A DNA stretch of 64,000 nt from Mobula birostris (Eukaryota). A program made the position numbers and the translations under genes. The stretch spans positions 44,525,590 to 44,589,589 of the forward strand of contig NC_092387.1 of the NCBI RefSeq assembly GCF_030028105.1. Reading direction: 5' to 3'. Position 1 is the first letter of the stretch. Each line of letters starts with the position of its first letter. Below are positions 3,161 to 57,019 of this stretch, one piece after another. The notes beneath the pieces were generated by a model. That model ran no database searches. It saw nothing but the letters and a program-made list of their open reading frames with translations, and was not told the origin of the DNA.

Positions 3161-4284
3161 CTAGAATTACTTGAAAGAGGAGATGAATGGATCATAAAAG
3201 CTAGCTTGATTTTGTTGGGCTGAATAGTCTGTTCCTCTCCTGTGTATTTGGATGACCTTGCAATTTGTTTTCTAAATAGAATAGTGCAATTTATGCAGCA
3301 TCTTGTATTCCAATGAGCTATTTATAATGTTCCATTTTAAATGTTTGCTTTCAGCCCTCATGAAGCAATGGTAGTTTAAGTACATTCAATGGGATGAATG
3401 ATATGGAAAAGATCATTATTATTGTTTTAGAATTTTTAACGTAATACTTCAGGAAAATATTACAGAAACTGGTTTGTGTTACACTTTGTGAATAATATAA
3501 ATAGCTTCCTTAAATCTGTTAAAAGTATGTTCAAATTATTTGTATTTTTTCAACCTACATGCTTAAAATAGAATTTTTACAATAGTAACTTACTGTGGTT
3601 CCAGTCGCTGCCTTTATTAACACTCTCCTTCTCTATTTAGCATGTCAGATGTGATAAATTTCTGTGGTGTTTCCATGCAGGTACATGTGCCTCCATGCAA
3701 ACTTGTGCTGCACCAGTAAGTCAATTTTGTTTTGTAAATAAAATATATTTGCTCCAGATTGTTAATTCTCTCCAAGTTATCGCTGTATTGTTCTGTGGGA
3801 TCATGCCTATGGAGAATTACGTTTAACTTGGCTAAACTCACTTAATAAGTTTTAACTGAGGGATCTTTTATTATGTTTGTTCAAAGATGTTCGTCTTATT
3901 TTCACACTGAGCTGTTTTAATCCATTTTATTCCTGGATTTTTATTTGAATAATAAAAAGTAATGGGTTGAGCTATGCCTCTGTTTTATTTGAGTGATTAA
4001 TCTTTTTGGGATAAAATTTAGTTAGTTTCACCTTTTGGAACAGACAAAGCAAACCATTTGAAATAGTTTGTCATCCTTCCTCTACATTGTTTAAACTTAA
4101 TTACCATTTGGAAGCAATTGACTTAAAATTGTGTCCCATTATGACTGGTTTCTTTTCATTCTTGAATGTGGGTGAGGCAGGCAAGACTGTCATTTATTAC
4201 TCATTCTTTGTAGCATGATAGCAGTGGGTTGCTTCAGTGTATTGATTTGAAAGAACCATGTAGGCAGTTGTGACCCACTTAAAC

Positions 4285-4735
4285 ACAAGACATTCTGAAG
4301 ATGTTCGAAATTTTGAGGAGTACACAGAAAATGCTAGAGGAACTCTCTTAGTCAGTTATCGTCTATGGAGGAGAATAAACAGGGGTGAGATGTCCTTTCC
4401 TCCTTACCTGCCCATCATCTCCCTCCGGTTCCCTTCCCTTTCTTCCATGGTCCACTCTCCTCTGCTGGTAGATTCCTCCTTCAGTCCTTTACCTCTTCCA
4501 CCTATCCCCTCCCAGCTTATTCCTTCAACCCCACCCCACTCACTGACCCACCTTCCATGTCACCTAGTTTCACTTATCACCTGCCAACTTGTACTACTTC
4601 CCTTTTCCTCACCACCTTATTCTAGCTTCTGACCCCTTTGTTTCCAATTCTAATAAAGGGTCTTGGCCAGAAATGGCAACTGTTTATTCCCCTCTGTAGC
4701 TGCTGCCTGACTTGCTGAGTTACTCCAGTATTTTG
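4285..4735 (+). mobile_element. Old Penelope-like 3' fragment with a short inverted arm and decayed hammerhead motif
   Basis: Pyrimidine-rich tract, then ctaataaagggtcttggccagaaa...gctgcctgacttgctgagttactccag; the left part is a degenerate reverse complement of the same terminus. Confidence 0.6.
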
Positions 4736-6888
4736 GACTGGAGTCATGTTTAATTTAGATTTAAGGACAGAAAGTTTTCCCTTAAAATACAAGAGCCTGT
4801 TGGATTCTTGCTGGTAAGTAATCCAGTTATTTCAGACACTCCTTCAGTTATCAGTTTTTAATTTTCTCAAAACTATCATGGTAGGATTTGAACTATTTTT
4901 TATAACTCAGGTCTCTACTAAAATTCTGTTAATATGAACACTGCATTGTTTCGGCAAGTACTTGCACTTTTTGGACAGCTTAGTTTTCCCAAGTATTTTT
5001 AGATTAATTTCAGATGTTAAAGTATGGATTCTCATGATACTAAATAATGAATAAAATTATCCTTCTCCTCCTCCCCTCAAAAATAATCCGTGAAATACTT
5101 ATTACATTTTTTAAAATGTCCATAATGGAGAAATAAATGTAGACGCCCTCTGATTGTTGTGTGGTTGGAATAGTTGATCGCAGGGATGAGCAAAAACAAC
5201 TCCTCTCAGGAGATCATTAAGCAATTTGCACTGAACTGAAACTTCCTTTCATGTTTGTTCAAGCACATGATCTTTAATCCAGCAAATGAATTCATATTGC
5301 ATATTTTGATAATCGTTTGTTTAGATTTTGTTAAGTAATCATACATTAATAAGTTCTAACATTCATTGAGATATTGCATTTTTAAGATTCCAAGGAAGCT
5401 GCTGCTGTCTTCAGGAGTGGGGTTGTTTTACCTAACTATTAAACACATTGCAGTAATTAGTCTTTTAGACCGAGAATGAAATACTGAAAATGTATTTATT
5501 GGGTTAATTATAGATGGAGAGATGATTGGAGGCTGCAGTGCTCATTAACAACTGATCAACGAATTACTAAAACAAAATAAGTCTTTATTTTATTTAAATT
5601 TTATACCTCCATGCCATCAAAGCGTAGAAGGCTCTTCAATAAGTGCTTCTGTGAATTGTAGTTACTGTAGATTGTAGTTTTTGTGTAAATTGTAAAATGT
5701 TTCAGTCTGTTGCATCAGTAGGAAGATTGTAGGTAGATCGTTTTGTAGGATCACCAGTGTTCACTAAATAACGATGAATGTGACATTTTTAAAATTTCCA
5801 CTCCCCCCAATTTGGTTACTGAGACTGTTAATTTCTGTGGAATTAACTTTTCAGTCTTGAATGACCAAACTCTTGAACCATACTAAAATGCTAAGTAATA
5901 TTCAGTCTATTTATCCTACCCCTGCATTCTTGAGTATTTTAGGCTGCTGTGTGATTCTTTTGAGAGGTGTGGTGTGATGGGTGTCAGGGACAAGTGCCTC
6001 CACAATCATGTGCTTTGGCTTTGTAGGTTTATTTCTATGGTAACTGTGTGCGTTTCGCAGGGACTTAGTCATTTGGTATGAGCTGTGGCCAGTCTATTTC
6101 CCAGGTTAATACAGTAATCCAGCCTGTGCAATATTAGAATTCTATGTACCAAGATATTGGTGTGTCTAAATATTTGGCAAAAAAAAAGCACTCGAACAGT
6201 AACCATGAAGGATTTTTGTATTGACCAAGGAAAAATTATTCCTATTGTAATGTGCATTATTCTGTTTGAAATAAACCGCATTTCTACTTTATTTGTATTG
6301 TATTTGATTGGCATAGCAATATACTAAGCAAACTATCGTCTTGTGTCCCAGTTTTCTAACAAAGTATTTTTTTCTCTGCTGGTAGTACAAAAATTTCATT
6401 TATTTCCTTCTGTCTGTTCCATCTCCATGTTATTATTCAGTAGCCTTTACCATCCCTTTAGCCAGTAGAATAACCTGCTATCCCTCCTATTACATACTTC
6501 CCTTTTATTCTTTTCCTGTAATTCTCAGCAAATTAGAATAAATTTCCTCCCAGCTTTCCACTTCAGATGAAAGGTCATTATCTCTGTGTTCTCTCCCTTG
6601 ATCTGCTGTATTACCCGAGTATTTCCAGCATTGTTTTTAAGTATCATGGAATTGATCGACTGTGGGCTTTAAAATCAACTTGTCTGTATTCTCAAGTGTT
6701 TCATGGTGGTGCTTTCTGCGAACACAAAAATAAGGGCTTAATATTCCAGTTTAGTCACTAATTTTAGATGAAAATTAGTATAATCAAATAAAACAGCTAA
6801 TATTTCTTTTGGTTGATAAAACTAAAAGATTAAGTTACAGGATGTGAATTTTGGCTTTTTTTGTAAGTCACTTTAAAAGTGGAAAATA

Positions 6889-10113: not shown

Positions 10114-11261
10114 CAGGTTTTCCCCTGCCATCCGAAGGTAGACCGTCCCTGTGAAACAGTTTGTAAGCCAGAATGTCGTAAAGTGAAGAAGCAATTAGCA
10201 TTTATTTATATGGGAAAAATTTGTGAGCGTTCGCAGACCCAAAAAATAACCTACCAAATCATGCCAAATTACACATAAAACCTAAAATAACAGTTACATA
10301 AAGTAAAAACAGGAATGATGTGATAAATACACAACCTATATAAAGTAGAAATACTTTTCTACAATCGTTGCCGCACTGTTCTCCGTAGCGAAAATCTCGC
10401 ACAAGCACTCTCGGCAGAAACACAGCGCAAGCACTCTTGGCAGAAACAGGGCGCAAGTGCTCTCGGCAGAAACACCCTCTCCAGTAACCTTTAAGCTGTG
10501 AATCTGCCAAATCATACCAAATAGCACATAAGAATACACAGCCTATAAAAAGTAGAAATAATGTATGTACAGTGTAGTGTCAGTTACGGGAATTGGGAAG
10601 ACAGTGCCGAGCACACTGATGATGGTGTGTTAGGCTGAGTTGTCGGAGGTGGGGGTGGTGCAGTGGTCCCCAACCTCCGGGCAGCGAACTGATACCGATC
10701 GGCGGAGAATGCAGCGGTAGCCGGGACGCACCCAGCACATCTTTAAGAAAAAAGCCGAAATAAACAAGCTAATTAATTAGGTGCTGCCTGGCACGTGATT
10801 AATTAGCTTGTTTATTTCGGCTTTTTTCTTAAAGATGTGCTGGGTGCGTCCCGGCTACCACTGCATTCGCCGCGCAATGTATCGGTCTGCGGCCCGGAGG
10901 TTGGGACCACTGGGGTGTCATTTCATCGTCGTCTGTTTCCATCAGGGCAGGCAGATCATCTTCTTCTATCTCGAAACGCTTAATTATGTTTAGTTTTACA
11001 CTAAGTGTAACACCCTTACGAGCTCTTTCAGGCTTTTCCAATACCTTGGAACTCATCTTGCTAACGACTGCTCACAGGCACATGTTTAAGCAATGCCAGC
11101 TAGAATGCGGTTCCGGGGAGGAACTCGGCTGCTCGGGGTGAGTGATACCTTTTTTCGTAATGGTGAAAACACCTTCTGTTAGTGAAAACAGGTAACTAAT
11201 GTAGGTCTTCCGTAACAGCGAGGTTTTGTAAAGCGAACGTTCGAAAAGTGGTGGACACCTG
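10114..11261 (-). mobile_element. Tigger/pogo-like non-autonomous DNA transposon
   Basis: TA|caggttttccc ... ggacacctg|TA; - strand remnant RARKGVTLSVKLNIIKRFE resembles the CENP-B-type N-terminal HTH of Tigger transposases. Confidence 0.75.
10661..10912. mobile_element. Near-fully palindromic MITE with hAT-like termini nested in the Tigger-like element
   Basis: cagtggtccccaacc ... ggttgggaccactg; the arms are reverse complements for about 120 bp; only a partial TSD (gggtg). Confidence 0.75.
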
Positions 11262-14580: not shown

Positions 14581-15119
14581 TTATAATGGAATGTGGTTGA
14601 GATTTCTTTGAGTGTTTATTTCCAACTTTGGAATTTTCCTGTTAGTGAAATGAGAAATCAGGCACTAGCACTAAAATTTCAGTCAGTGTTCAGGTGATTG
14701 CATGAGATGAAAACAGAGGAGCTGCACATTGTTTAAGTAGCAAATTATGAGTAAAGCTATTTATTAACTGCATTCTCCTTTTGGTATCTTGTGTCTAGAC
14801 AGTATTAATTTTCATCTCACCTTTCCATTCCATGACCTGTGGAACTCTGGTTCTATACTTCATTACTACTGCTTCCCGAGTCACACTGTAGAAGGTATTG
14901 GTGGTTTGGGGGGAAAATATCAGCATTTCACTTGGCAAACTGGAGAATGTAAATTTTGATTTATTTAATTTTTAATAATCTTTAATTTTTTTAATATGGT
15001 AATTACAGCTCTGTAGAGCACATATACAATTTGCTGCTCGGCTGTCAAAAAACTTTAGTTTGTTGATCTGTGCAATTTCATTACAACTGTGCAGCATATT
15101 GGTCTTGGAGTTGCATCGT

Positions 15120-16260
15120 AAATGGGATCCCAACACCAAGCACATCTTTCCCTGCCCCCCACGTTATCCTTAACACAGGGATCACTCCTTACACGACTCC
15201 TTTGTCCATTCGTTCCTCCCCACTGATCTCCCTCCTAGCACTTATCCTTGCAAACGGAATAAGTGCTATATTTGTGCTCGTACACCTCCTCTGTCACTGC
15301 CATTCAGAGCTCTAAACAATCTTTCCAGATGAGGCAACAGTTCACCTGTGAGTCTGTTGGGGTCATTTTCTGTATCCATTGCTCCTAGTGTGGCCTCCTG
15401 TTTGTCAGTAAGGCCTGACATAGATTGAGAGACAGCGGGATCTCCCAGCAGCCACCCATTTTAATTCCACTTCCCATTCCCATTCCGATATGTGAATTCA
15501 TGGCCTCCTCTACTGTTGTGATGAGGCCACACTGAGGTTGGAGGAACAACACCTTATATTCCGTCTGGGTAGCCTCCAACCTAATGGCATGAACATCAAC
15601 ACAGAATAATCTGCAGATGCTGGGGTTAAAGCAACACTCACAACACGCTGGAGGAACTCAGCAGGTCAGGCAGCATCTGTGGAAAAGATCGGTCGTCGTT
15701 TTGGGCCGGAACCCTTCCTGGCGAAGGGTTCTGGCCCGAAACATTGACCGATCTTTTCCACGGATGCTGCCCGACCTACTGAGTTCCTCCAGCGTGTTGT
15801 GAGTGTTGGCATGAACATCGATTTCTCAAACTTATGGCAATGCCCTCTTCTCCCCTCCCCTCACCTTCACTTTTTCCCCCTCTTTCATCTTATCTCCTTG
15901 CCCAGCATCGTCTCCCTCAGGTGCTTATCCCCCTTTACTTTCTTCCATGGCCTTCTGTCCTTTTCTATCAAGACCACCCCCCTTCTCCAGGCCTGTATCT
16001 CCTTCACCAATTAACTTCCCAGCACTTTACTTCATCCCTCTGCTTTCAGCTTCACCTATCACCTTGTGTTTATCTCTCCCCTCCCCCCACCTTTAAAATC
16101 TATTCTTCAGCTTTTTTCCTCCAGTCCTGCTGAAGGGTGTCGGCCTGAAAAGTCAATTGTACTCTTTTCCATAGATGCATCTTGTCCTGCTGAGTTCCCC
16201 CAGCATTTTCTGTGTGTTGCTTGGATTTCCAGCCTCTGCAGATTTTCTCTTGTTTGTTAT
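15120..16260 (+). mobile_element. Penelope-like element 3' portion (decayed GIY-YIG region and terminal repeat) hosting a fold-back insertion
   Basis: Homologous to the - strand copy at 43743-44762; decayed hammerhead near 16122-16160 (ctgctgaagggtgtcggcctgaaa). Confidence 0.85.
15598..15808. mobile_element. Fold-back mini-element derived from a Penelope terminus
   Basis: Inverted arms 15632-15717 and 15723-15808; duplication tggcatgaacatc at 15585-15597 and 15807-15819. Confidence 0.85.
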
Positions 16261-16761
16261 AAAATATACTACTCCTTTTATATAAGTATTTCCAAATGAG
16301 TATCCAACTATATTTTAAATAAAATAGTACATTTCCATTCCTGGCAAACTTTTCCCAAAAGTAAAGAATAATAATTCATTGAGGGCAATTTGGAAAATAC
16401 TTCTAATAAGTCAATATCACCCAGGACCAGAATATGTTTAAGATGCAACTCCAAGACCAATATCCTGCACAGTTGAAATGAAATTGCACAGAATTATTTT
16501 GTGTGTGTTACTATATTTTCTAAATGAAGTTATCATCTTTCCTTCTGATTTAACTGTTTGCTTTATACTTCCACACACTTGAGGAAAAAGAAGGCAAAAA
16601 ATGAGAAACTACATCATTACTCTGCCAGGCTAAAACCAAAACAAGCTAAAGTCCATTACCAGCGTGGCCAACAAGAGTGAAAGGGAGGATTTTGACCTCT
16701 GATGTTCTATTTGAAGCAAATGGCTAAATTTCTTGCCTCAGCCAATGAGTACCAAGGATTT

Positions 16762-16970
16762 AAACACGAGGAATTCTGCAGATGCTGGAAATTCAAGCAA
16801 CACACATCAAAGTTGCTGGTGAACGCAGCAGGCCAGGCAGCATCTCTAGGAAGAGGTACAGTCGACGTTTCGGGCCGAGACCCTTCGTCGACGCTTGACT
16901 TGAAACGTCGACTGTACCTCTTCCTAGAGATGCTGCCTGGCCTGCTGCGTTCACCAGCAACTTTGATGTG
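16762..16970. mobile_element. Young fold-back mini-element derived from a Penelope terminus
   Basis: 69-bp perfect inverted arms 16803-16871 and 16902-16970; TSD tgagtaccaag(g/a)att at 16746-16760 and 16969-16983. Confidence 0.9.
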
Positions 16971-17119
16971 AGTACCAAGAATTGTTGATTTTCTTTTTAA
17001 AAGGCAGTGAAAATTTTATCTTTATAGTATCTGGAAAAAGTCAAACTAAAATTGTAACAATTTCTTGAGATTTATCGTGCTTCATAGAGGCTGGAACTTG
17101 GGACTCAGAGGTTGGAGGA

Positions 17120-17585: not shown

Positions 17586-17708
17586 GCCTGCTGCGTTCAC
17601 AAGCAACTTTGATGTGTGTTGCTTGAATTTCCAGCGGCCTGCTGCGTTCACCAGCAACTTTGATGTGTGTTGCTTGAATTTCCAGCATCTGCAGAATTCC
17701 TGTTGTTT
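17586..17708 (+). mobile_element. Penelope-terminus fragment as a partial tandem repeat
   Basis: About 50-bp unit gcctgctgcgttcac...ttccagc repeated directly; TSD tggtattagc at 17578-17587 and 17708-17717. Confidence 0.85.
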
Positions 17709-32851: not shown

Positions 32852-33490
32852 AAAATCAGGTTTATTGTCACTGGTGTATGTCCAGTAATTTGTTGTTTTA
32901 TGGTGGCAGTATAGTGCAAGAAATAAGAATTACTGTAAATTATACGAAATAAATAGTGCAAAAGATGAATAGTGAGGTAGCATTCATGGACTGTTCAGAA
33001 ATCAGATGGTGGAGTGGAAGCAGTGTTTACAAAACCATTGAGTGTGGGGCTTCAAGCTCTTGTGCCTCCTCCCTGATGATAGTACTGAGAGGAGGGCATG
33101 CCTTGGATGGTGAGAGTCCTTAATGATGGTATCACCTTCTTGAGGCACTGTGTTGTGAAGATACCCTCGTCGGTGGAAAAGGTTGTGCAAGTGAAGGAGC
33201 TGGCAGAGTCTATAACCATCTGCAATCTCTTTTAGTTTTAAGCCCCACACTCATTGGTTGTAGAAACACTGCTTCCACTCCACCATCTGATTTCTGAACA
33301 GTCCGTGAATGCTACCTCACTATTCATCTTTTGCACTATTTATTTATTTAGTATAAATTACAGTAATACTTATTTCTTGCACTATACTGCCTCCATATGA
33401 GGCAGTGATGCAAGCAGACAAAATGCTTTCCGTCATACATCTTTAGAAATTTGCTAGTCTGGTGATGTACCAGATCTCCTCAAACGACAG
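32852..33490 (-). mobile_element. Rex1-type LINE 3' fragment containing an inverted self-duplication
   Basis: IIKDSHHPRHALLSVLSSGRRHKSLK on -; 33240-33397 is the reverse complement of 32899-33052. Confidence 0.8.
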
Positions 33491-43742: not shown

Positions 43743-44762
43743 AAACAACAGGAATTCTGCAGATGCTGGAAATTCAAGCAACACACATCAAAGTTGCTGG
43801 TGAACGCAGCAGGCCAGGCAGCATCTCTAGGAAGAGGTGCAGTCGACGTTTCAGGCCGAGACCCTTCGTCAGGACTAACTGAAGGAAGAGTGAGTAAGGG
43901 ATTTGAAAGTTGGAGGGGGAGGGGGAGATCCAAAATGATAGGAGAAGACAGGAGGGGGAGGGATAGAGCCAAGAGCTGGACAGATGATAGGCAAAAGGGG
44001 ATATGAGAGGATCATGGGACAGGAGGTCCGGGAAGAAAGACGGGGGGGGGGGGGACCCAGAGGATGGGCAAGAGGTATATTCAGAGGGACAGAGGGAGAA
44101 AAAGGAGAGTGAGAGAAAGAATGTGTGCATAAAAATAAGTAACAGATGGGGTACGAGGGGGAGGTGGGGCCTTAGCCGAAGTTAGAGAAGTCGATGTTCA
44201 TGCCATCAGGTTGGAGGCTACCCAGACGGAATATAAGGTGTTGTTCCTCCAACCTGAGTGTGGCTTCATCTTTACAGTAGAGGAGGCTGTGGATAGACAT
44301 GTCAGAATGGGATGTGGAATTAAAATGTGTGGCCACTGGGAGATCCTGCTTTCTCTGGTGGACAGAGTGTAGATGTTCAGCAAAGCGGTCTCCCAGTCTG
44401 CATCGGGTCTCGCCAATATATAAAAGCCCACATCGGGAACACCGGATGCAGTGTATCACCCCAGTCGACTCACAGGTGAAGTGTTGCCTCACCTGGAAGG
44501 ACTGTTTGGGGCCCTGAATGGTGGTAAGGGAGGAAGTGTAAGGGCATGTGTAGCACTTGTTCCGCTTACCCGGATAAGTGCCAGGAGGGAGATCAGTGGG
44601 GAGGGATTGGGGGGGACGAATGGACAAGGGAGTTGCATAGGGAGCGATCCCTGCAGAATGCAGAGAGAGGCGGGGAGGGAAAGATGTGCTTAGTGGTGGG
44701 ATCCCGTTGGAGGTGGCAGAAGTTACGGTGAATAATATGTTGGACCCGGAGGCTGGTGGGGT
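43743..44762 (-). mobile_element. Penelope-like element 3' ~1 kb with GIY-YIG endonuclease
   Basis: ORF 44172-44627: NKCYTC linker, GVIHCIRCSRCGLLYIGETRCRLGDRFAEH, LEEQHLIFRLGSLQPDGMN; terminal region with hammerhead. Confidence 0.93.
43840..43877 (-). ncRNA. Minimal hammerhead ribozyme motif with intact core
   Basis: - strand UAGUC-CUGACGA-A-GGGUCUCGGCCU-GAAA-CG-UC-GACUG; stem II closes with G-U. Confidence 0.75.
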
Positions 44763-45342
44763 TGTGTTTCCCTTATCTGTACTGTTATCTGTGCTGTTAT
44801 CTTTGGCTGGGAATTTTCCCTCTTGACATGAATCTTAGCTTTGTTCATAAAATGTGAAATTTAGTCCTCATGTCCTGCTGAGTTTCAGGTTTTTAAGTTG
44901 GTGCTAAAAGGAAAAAGGAAAGGATAGACTAATTATAGATATAGTTTTGCTTTGGAGTTCAATATGTTGTAAGTAAAAACATGCTGCAATAAATTTCAAA
45001 GTTTAAAGTTCAAAGTAAATTTATTATTGAAATACGTGTAGGTTACAATATACTACCTTGCAATCACACTTAAAATGTTGGAGGAACTTAGCAATCAAGC
45101 AATATCTATGGAGGAGAATAAACAGTCAACATTTCAGGGCAAGACCCTTCATCTTGAGATTCAGTTTCTTGCAGATATTTTCAGGGAAATATGAAATACA
45201 GTAGTATTTTATGAAAAGCAATACATAAAGACATACAAACTCAATGTGCAGAAGAAGACGATTGTGTAAATAAAAATAATATTGAGAGCAGGAGTTGTAA
45301 TGAGTCCTTGAATGTAAGTCTGTAGGTTGTAGAATCAATTCA

Positions 45343-56322: not shown

Positions 56323-57019
56323 ACATCTTCTCCTATGAGCTCGAACTATGGTCACTGCAGCTTTCCATAGTTGTAGATTAAAGTAGTATGGAAAATTTTA
56401 ATTATATTTGTTAGTATCATCAGTATGATATGTAACCTGGTTAATATTTTGATGATATGGGTATTTTAGTGGAAATGAGTCAGGCTGATGAAAGTAACTA
56501 AATTAATCTGCAGAATTCCCTTTCCTTAATGTCATTTGCATGCTTTGTTAGTGTTTGCATGTTTTTGACTTGCAGAAAGTCCACTGAAAGAAATAGCCCT
56601 TGTTGCTCCAGGTGCTTACATCAGTAGTAGATTTTTCACTCAAAAATCAATATTTTATCTAACAGTAAAGATACTGGAAAATGCAAACAGAAAATGCTGG
56701 AAATACCTCATGGATCAGAAAGCTTCTAAGGAAAGAGAGTTAATACTCCAGGTCAAACCTTCCTGTCTTCAGATAAGCTATGCAGCTAATTTTAAACATT
56801 AACTCCATTGCTTTCTCCACAGGAGCAGTCTGATCTGCAGGATATTTGCAGTGAATACTTTTGACATTTTTGTTCAGGAAAATAGGTTTGAATTCAGTCT
56901 AAGCAGGTGGTTCTCAACCTGCAGTGCATGATCTACTTGTGGAGCTTCCAAGCATTGTTGGAATCCGTGAGTCTTTAATACTATTGAGATGTTTAAAGAA
57001 AAGTAAAATCAAATACATA

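What the first reader, a model, noticed from the sequence alone, without database searches (positions are those of the whole stretch)
15598..16983. TSD-flanked fold-back mini-retroelements joined head-to-head at the hammerhead core
Seen: two independent ~210-bp insertions of different subfamilies (15598-15808 and 16762-16970) share one design. A complete Penelope 3' end on - is fused at the hammerhead core to an inverted, 3'-truncated copy of the same sequence, flanked by 13-15-bp duplications. Older degenerate versions appear near 4285-4735 and 56685-56860. Established: Penelope-like elements form tandem or inverted terminal repeats and carry hammerheads; L1 twin priming inverts different segments rather than duplicating one. 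Inference: recurrent turn-around at the structured ribozyme suggests RT fold-back there, or a non-autonomous hairpin family. The breakpoints are near but not at the predicted GUC cut site.
Basis: partly seen in the sequence, partly recalled or inferred. Interest (0 to 1): 0.7.

Follow-up and report, generated by a model that had tools for sequence, protein, structure and literature searches.

The report
Back-to-back Penelope retrotransposon stubs
These two 210-base mirror-image inserts are real stubs of a Penelope-type jumping gene, in a layout already described and present thousands of times in this genome, and they were likely built at insertion from two separate copies of the element's RNA end, one from each cut DNA strand, rather than by the copying enzyme turning round at the ribozyme.

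Summary
The two inserts are real. Each is one tailed and one tail-less 3' end of a Penelope-like element (PLE), joined head to head between 13- and 15-bp target-site duplications (TSDs). Empty sites exist for both. One subfamily alone has 8,910 exact-anchor copies. The layout is published for endonuclease-bearing PLEs, and long and full-length copies here share it. Junctions are nearly all unique, so this is not a propagating hairpin family. Simple fold-back fails in 51 of 99 mapped copies, where the tail-less arm holds 5' sequence that the tailed arm lacks; this asymmetry is present in the youngest copies too. Arm ends pile up at the hammerhead's 5' edge (-34 to -27), not at the cut site (28 of 8,910). 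Best reading: both nicked strands prime separate cDNAs at two start sites, and the two are end-joined. Whether the hot spot is an RNA start or a stall is unresolved. The scan has noted this before, in this genome and at least 34 genomes.

The parts
15585..15597 (+). E1 left TSD copy (13 bp)
   Evidence: D12; single copy in three paralogous host copies
15598..15717 (-). E1 tailed arm: PLE 3' end from -23 to +97; tail 15598-15631; hammerhead remnant lacks the CUGA box
15716..15808 (+). E1 tail-less arm, -30 to +63; 2-nt overlap with the other arm; decayed hammerhead core; starts 7 nt further 5' than the tailed arm
15807..15819 (+). E1 right TSD copy; first 2 nt shared with the arm end
15181..16260 (+). 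Older PLE copy (endonuclease C-terminus, 3' UTR, hammerhead end) that hosts E1
16746..16760 (+). E2 left TSD copy (15 bp)
   Evidence: D10; empty site in runs X9 and X11
16762..16889 (-). E2 tailed arm, -26 to +102
16890..16901 (+). E2 junction: 4 nt that mirror the end of the tailed arm, then 8 nt that resemble decayed stem II; readable as a 4-nt insertion or as a palindrome centre plus a 6-nt deletion
   Evidence: read by eye
16902..16970 (+). E2 tail-less arm, -8 to +61, identical to the tailed arm over 69 nt
16969..16983 (+). E2 right TSD copy (one mismatch)
4281..4737 (.). Older head-to-head pair; minus arm 4281-4382, plus-strand ribozyme end 4650-4737; asymmetric
56669..56841 (.). Very decayed possible head-to-head pair (weak)
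   Evidence: E 1.6e-4 and 0.047; no match above shuffles to the young reference
43743..44765 (-). Longer 5'-truncated copy of the E2 subfamily, used as the mapping reference

Best explanation
The two inserts are short head-to-head insertions of an endonuclease-bearing Penelope-like retroelement, likely built afresh at each insertion when both strands of a staggered cut prime separate cDNAs from the element's RNA and the two truncated ends are then likely end-joined. Shown: the anatomy, TSDs, unique junctions, arm asymmetry, the hot spot at the ribozyme's 5' edge and the same layout in long copies. Inferred: (1) a cut staggered by about 14 bp; (2) one strand primes near +96 to +110 (tailed arm), the other near +56 to +71 (tail-less arm); (3) templates come mostly from one source locus, sometimes from two variants; (4) both cDNAs often stop at -34 to -27, either by running off an RNA that starts there (about 0.5) or by stalling at the ribozyme (about 0.35); (5) joining uses microhomology or short templated insertions. 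Ribozyme cleavage is not needed.
For: TSD in 101 of 108 loci, 11-18 bp, mode 14; 0 of 200 in mismatched flanks. Outer ends fall in two windows, +56 to +71 (98 clean loci) and +96 to +110 (90 of 91), about 35-40 nt apart. Tail-less arm reaches at least 5 nt further 5' in 51 of 99 (41% weighted), tailed arm in 29 of 99 (38%); only 11 of 99 are symmetric within 2 nt. Asymmetry does not grow with age (rho -0.06, p 0.52; youngest third 24 of 33). Arm stops look independent (both at the hot spot 8.3% against 10.2% expected; 4 loci). L289 has an 850-bp tailed arm against a full-length tail-less arm, and L290 1.7 kb against 2.4 kb, each with a 14-15-bp TSD. Two loci pair two different common haplotypes (L144, L183), and 14 of 62 differ at one or more diagnostic sites. 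Insertions of 5 nt or more match nearby element sequence better than shuffles (12 cases). In vitro the anole PLE cuts and extends both strands, starts at two RNA sites that bound the tail, is predicted to be a dimer and does not need ribozyme cleavage (PMC11167929).
Against: Arms share subfamily alleles far more than chance (49 of 54, 54 of 59, 61 of 64, 42 of 44), which fold-back also predicts; E2's arms are identical. E2 and the 48 of 99 copies without extra 5' reach in the tail-less arm are compatible with fold-back. Microhomology at the two outer ends is similar (means 1.3 and 1.45 nt), so no first or second priming order is shown. No cap-derived G excess at -33 (by eye). 5' ends of 12 long copies that start in the 5' repeat are scattered (8 within -45 to +49, 4 further up) and do not separate an RNA start from a stall. 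Loci are the first 20-30 per bin on one chromosome, 11 of 110 complex ones were dropped, and spacers over 240 nt were not counted genome-wide. No biochemistry on this element.
Confidence: 0.72

Rival explanations
1. Fold-back or self-priming: one cDNA (or an antisense RNA, as proposed in PMC3846280) turns back near the ribozyme and copies itself; later deletions at the palindrome centre make the arms uneven.
For: Arms mostly share haplotype; 4 rare variants shared by both arms against 0.64 expected, though shuffles reached 4; E2 has a 4-nt mirror at its centre; self-priming is the proposal in print (passages).
Against: Neither arm contains the other in 51 of 99; asymmetry is strongest in the youngest third; the tail-less arm is 0.7-2.8 kb longer in L290 and L289; two loci mix haplotypes.
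Confidence: 0.13
2. A non-autonomous hairpin family that is copied as a unit.
For: Thousands of similar-sized copies; a few junctions recur (5, 3, 2, 2, 2 and 2 times).
Against: 89 distinct junctions in 99, 29 in 30 in the main bin; three of the four recurrent groups examined mix haplotypes between or within loci, as does the fourth, and three sit on 3-6-nt microhomologies; the best genomic matches to E1 and E2 are 92% and 96% identical, with other junctions.
Confidence: 0.03
3. Ribozyme cleavage sets the junction: self-cleaved RNA gives templates that end at the GUC site.
For: 6-8% of arms end within 3 nt of the cut; 9 of 100 listed rows join a -32 arm to a partner starting at +1 (by eye).
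Against: Exact cut-to-cut joints are 28 of 8,910, 8 of them in one local cluster; most arms contain the cut site and continue 20-35 nt past it; the +1 joints sit on a 4-nt microhomology, and a weaker one gives 15 rows.
Confidence: 0.05
4. Two unrelated insertions at one site, or later inversion or recombination between neighbours.
For: PLE ends are dense (238 in 1.15 Mb) and insert into each other (E1).
Against: One TSD flanks the whole unit; orientation is 27 head-to-head against 1 and 2; arms share haplotype; empty sites lack both arms.
Confidence: 0.04

Closest known systems
Typical insertion unit of endonuclease-bearing PLEs: pLTR, adjacent inverted 5'-truncated copy, one-sided 30-40-bp tail, TSD (PMC3846280, PMC8557442, PMC2377424; passages)
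   Same: Head-to-head arms, tail at one end, single TSD, partner ORF with RT and C-terminal GIY-YIG; L289 is the full-size form.
   Different: Here both arms are often only about 100 nt, there are thousands of copies, the TSD mode is 14 bp (8-10 bp in the rotifer examples) and the stops peak at the ribozyme's 5' edge.
Minimal hammerheads of metazoan PLEs (PMC4209133, parts 1-2 of 4)
   Same: CUGANGA, stem II, GAAAC-GUC with palindromic helix III; that paper notes pairs on opposite strands 100-700 bp apart.
   Different: No junction mapping in the parts read; cleavage activity was not tested here.
Anole Poseidon PAc in vitro (PMC11167929, parts 1-2 of 4)
   Same: Both strands cut and extended; two RT start sites bound the tail; cleavage dispensable.
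   Different: Other clade; the parts read do not show or model head-to-head products.
L1 twin priming, and L1 bridges of two 5'-joined inverted copies in tumours (PMC10191854, 10.1101/2024.08.27.596794; passages)
   Same: Both nicked strands prime, and cDNA ends are joined.
   Different: Twin priming inverts adjoining segments of one RNA (established knowledge); two-copy L1 bridges are rare rearrangements, whereas here the same segment is copied twice at one site as a routine outcome.
Non-LTR retrozymes (10.64898/2026.07.22.740005; passages)
   Same: Small PLE-related units with a type I hammerhead.
   Different: Retrozymes are tandem repeat families; these are inverted, with unique junctions.

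Membership tests
Endonuclease-bearing PLE insertion | Partner ORF with RT and C-terminal GIY-YIG | tested here: met
   L288 open frame of 1,047 aa: RVT_1 E 1.2e-5 and GIY-YIG E 0.0074, both below Pfam cut-offs; CxxC between the GIY and YIG boxes read from the sequence; its 3' part is 96% identical to the E2-subfamily reference. No partner ORF was sought for the E1 subfamily.
Endonuclease-bearing PLE insertion | Inverted 5'-truncated copy at the 5' end | tested here: met
Endonuclease-bearing PLE insertion | 30-40-bp tail at one end only | tested here: met
   Outer ends at +56 to +71 and +96 to +110; one locus of 109 distinct had both tails (L114/L115); the search pattern required a tail on one side
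Endonuclease-bearing PLE insertion | TSD around the whole unit | tested here: met
   101 of 108 loci; 0 of 200 controls
Neptune/Nematis-type PLE | CX2-5CxxC linker before the GIY-YIG domain | tested here: met
   C-x4-C-x2-C in P0001; definition from PMC8557442 passages
Neptune/Nematis-type PLE | RT phylogeny | not tested
   No tree was built
Minimal hammerhead of PLEs | Core boxes, stem II, palindromic helix III, short helix I | tested here: met
   Read from the reference copy; Rfam gave no hammerhead hit; cores in E1 and E2 are truncated or decayed
Minimal hammerhead of PLEs | Self-cleavage | not testable with these tools
   Needs a bench assay
Non-autonomous hairpin or MITE-like family | Shared junction among dispersed copies | tested here: not met
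   89 distinct junctions in 99; recurrent ones mix haplotypes
Fold-back product | One arm contained in the other | tested here: not met
   Fails in 51 of 99, including E1; not excluded for the rest
Non-LTR retrozyme | Head-to-tail tandem units | tested here: not met
   2 tandem against 27 head-to-head pairs

The most novel reading that the evidence does not exclude
The minimal hammerhead is a pairing scaffold, not mainly a cutter: two RNAs that begin at helix I dimerise through the palindromic helix III and trans helix I inside a protein dimer, each is copied from one nicked strand, and the stubs are double strong-stop products. Head-to-head integration would then be the default Penelope mechanism and would explain why these ribozymes keep a dimer-only fold.
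Probability: 0.12. Interest if true: 0.8.

Novelty: new member of a known kind. Interest (0 to 1): 0.42.

Why it matters
How Penelope-like elements make their inverted ends is described as undefined in PMC8557442 (passages), and the proposal in print is self-priming (PMC3846280). Thousands of independent junctions here favour two-strand priming, tie the genomic tail to the two start sites seen in vitro, and give a sharp prediction: stops at the ribozyme's 5' edge. The existing in vitro system could test this. The layout itself is known. A rough extrapolation gives about 90,000 short hairpins in this genome (27 in 1.15 Mb), a possible large source of double-stranded RNA; that was not tested.

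Tried and rejected
Rfam scan: no hammerhead family hit; the mir-5681 match at E2 (46.8 bits, cut-off 88) is rejected as a generic hairpin. Cap-G test: first letter beyond arms ending at -32, in 100 listed rows of 539, was C 42, G 32, T 26 on the antisense strand (A excluded by the pattern); after removing 15 and 9 microhomology rows it was 27, 23, 26, so no excess (counted by eye). Spliced-exon idea (pyrimidine tract plus AG just before the ribozyme): no shared upstream sequence among junction insertions. Shared A-to-G changes in both arms: 1 of 4 shared rare variants, not reproduced. 5' ends of long copies: inconclusive. Folding one element end alone gave no unusual stability (z -1.2) and not the hammerhead fold. 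No RNA holder listed; guessed-RNA contigs were swamped by repeat copies, so expression, small RNA and editing were not assessed. Not in print in these searches: two-strand priming as the cause of inverted pLTRs, or a junction peak at the hammerhead edge (open-access library only, no supplements read, older PLE reviews not seen).

Full report
Positions below are relative to the predicted GUC cut of the hammerhead (0); CUGA starts at -28 and the 5' strand of helix I spans about -33 to -29.

Observation. Both inserts are present as described. E1 has arms 78 of 86 nt alike and an exact 13-bp TSD; E2 has arms identical over 69 nt and a 15-bp TSD with one mismatch. They belong to different subfamilies (97 of 118 aligned letters). 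E1 interrupts the endonuclease end of an older copy, and three paralogues in the window show the unsplit site. For E2, contigs of two other organisms join the flanks across one TSD copy, and contigs of two further runs hold both flank junctions. The inner junctions were not seen in the listed contigs. The site at 4281-4737 is head to head but asymmetric, and 56669-56841 is only weakly supported.

What it belongs to. The E2 subfamily is the 3' end of a 3.6-kb element. One copy has an open frame of 1,047 residues with RT and C-terminal GIY-YIG matches below Pfam cut-offs, and a CX4CxxC linker of Neptune/Nematis type. L289 is a full-length tail-less copy preceded by an inverted, tailed 850-bp copy within a 14-bp TSD; L290 has arms of 1.7 and 2.4 kb within a 15-bp TSD. 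The stubs are therefore the short end of a continuum.

How common. With one tail anchor and one inner anchor matched exactly, head-to-head units number 313, 2,396, 5,141 and 1,060 for spacers of 0-60, 61-120, 121-180 and 181-240 nt; reversed-pattern controls gave 0. Longer spacers were not counted. A separate core-to-core pattern gave 1,313. In 115 systematically spaced 10-kb stretches, 238 ends of all ages gave 27 adjacent head-to-head pairs, 1 tail-to-tail and 2 tandem. Among young copies, 29 of 53 end-bearing fragments had an inverted mate, some of them doubtful, and by my tally about 10 of 20 events had two short arms. Unpaired copies exist: 6 of 25 end at -45 to -15, 12 further up and 7 further down; a recheck of 21 of them found an overlooked mate for at least two.

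Junctions. I mapped the first 20-30 loci of each bin (110 in all) and dropped 11: nine with more than 20 unassigned letters and one two-tailed locus listed twice. Of 99, 89 junctions are distinct. Weighted by bin size, 35% of tailed and 29% of tail-less arms end in the 7 nt from -34 to -28, several times the per-base rate of most other intervals; 8% and 6% end within 3 nt of the cut. Genome-wide, 539 copies end at -32 and 162 at -36 under similar patterns, and exact cut-to-cut palindromes are 28 of 8,910. Joints are 20% microhomology of 2 nt or more, 24% blunt or 1 nt, and 56% with inserted letters; longer insertions resemble nearby element sequence.

Fold-back or two primings. A fold-back arm must be contained in its template arm. 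The tailed arm cannot be a copy of the tail-less one, and in 51 of 99 loci (41% weighted) the tail-less arm reaches at least 5 nt further 5' than the tailed arm. E1 does so by 7 nt. Later decay at the palindrome centre does not explain this: asymmetry is uncorrelated with divergence and holds in 24 of the 33 youngest loci. The two stops look independent, on few loci. Against this reading, arms share subfamily alleles at 90-95% of diagnostic sites, so templates usually come from one source; 14 of 62 loci differ at one site or more and two pair different common haplotypes. E2 alone cannot decide. Outer ends lie in two windows about 35-40 nt apart, and 101 of 108 loci have an 11-18-bp TSD. This fits the anole element, which cuts and extends both strands and starts at two sites that bound the tail (PMC11167929, parts 1-2 of 4).

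Why the ribozyme edge. Two readings remain. Run-off from an RNA that starts there is plausible, because 16 of 28 copies that continue past the tail stop within +170 to +349 of the ORF leader, which suggests the 5' repeat serves as a template; the A at -32 also sits in an initiator-like word (consensus recalled, not from a call). But no cap-G excess was found, and long copies that start in the 5' repeat have scattered ends. A stall at the ribozyme structure is the alternative.

Comparison and novelty. The inverted copy, tail and TSD are the typical PLE unit (PMC3846280 passages; PMC8557442 passages; PMC2377424 passages), and opposite-strand hammerhead pairs were noted in PMC4209133 (parts 1-2 of 4). 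L1 comparators were seen as passages, and the retrozyme preprint likewise. I found no paper giving two-strand priming or the edge hot spot; supplements and subscription reviews were not seen and may hold such a model. The scan's own notes report the same thing many times (242 notes in at least 34 genomes; 199 fit in this genome). My reading was recorded before that look-up, and those notes are not independent support. Verdict: real, known architecture, with a useful mechanistic clue; interest 0.42.

Noticed in passing
L326-L353: 16 of 28 copies that run past the tail stop in clusters at +170-183, +212-220, +262-273 and +345-349 of the ORF leader; these may be further RT start sites. Four of them have an inverted mate that includes the element end.
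   Followed up: partly
window 10669-10905: A second palindrome (83-nt arms, 95%, 6-nt spacer, outer 27-nt arms) with no match to the PLE end profile; looks MITE-like.
   Followed up: no
window 15067-15122 and 16437-16492: A 56-nt, 95% inverted pair encloses the older PLE copy and E1; possibly a DNA-transposon remnant that received them.
   Followed up: no
window 32899-33397: Inverted repeat with 112-nt and 57-nt arms (93-94%).
   Followed up: no
window 17586-17708: Young PLE end with a 50-nt piece duplicated in tandem.
   Followed up: no
G000:C17:31870266-32588043: 8 of the 28 exact cut-site palindromes lie in 0.7 Mb, probably a segmental duplication of one insertion.
   Followed up: no
L288 (5' repeat): The copy with the open 1,047-aa frame has a 5' repeat only 75% like its 3' repeat, so it looks chimeric between subfamilies.
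   Followed up: partly
101 TSDs: TSDs tend to start with T (49 of 101) and end with A (51 of 101), a symmetric preference that fits cutting by a dimer; ends overlap element sequence, so this may be biased.
   Followed up: partly
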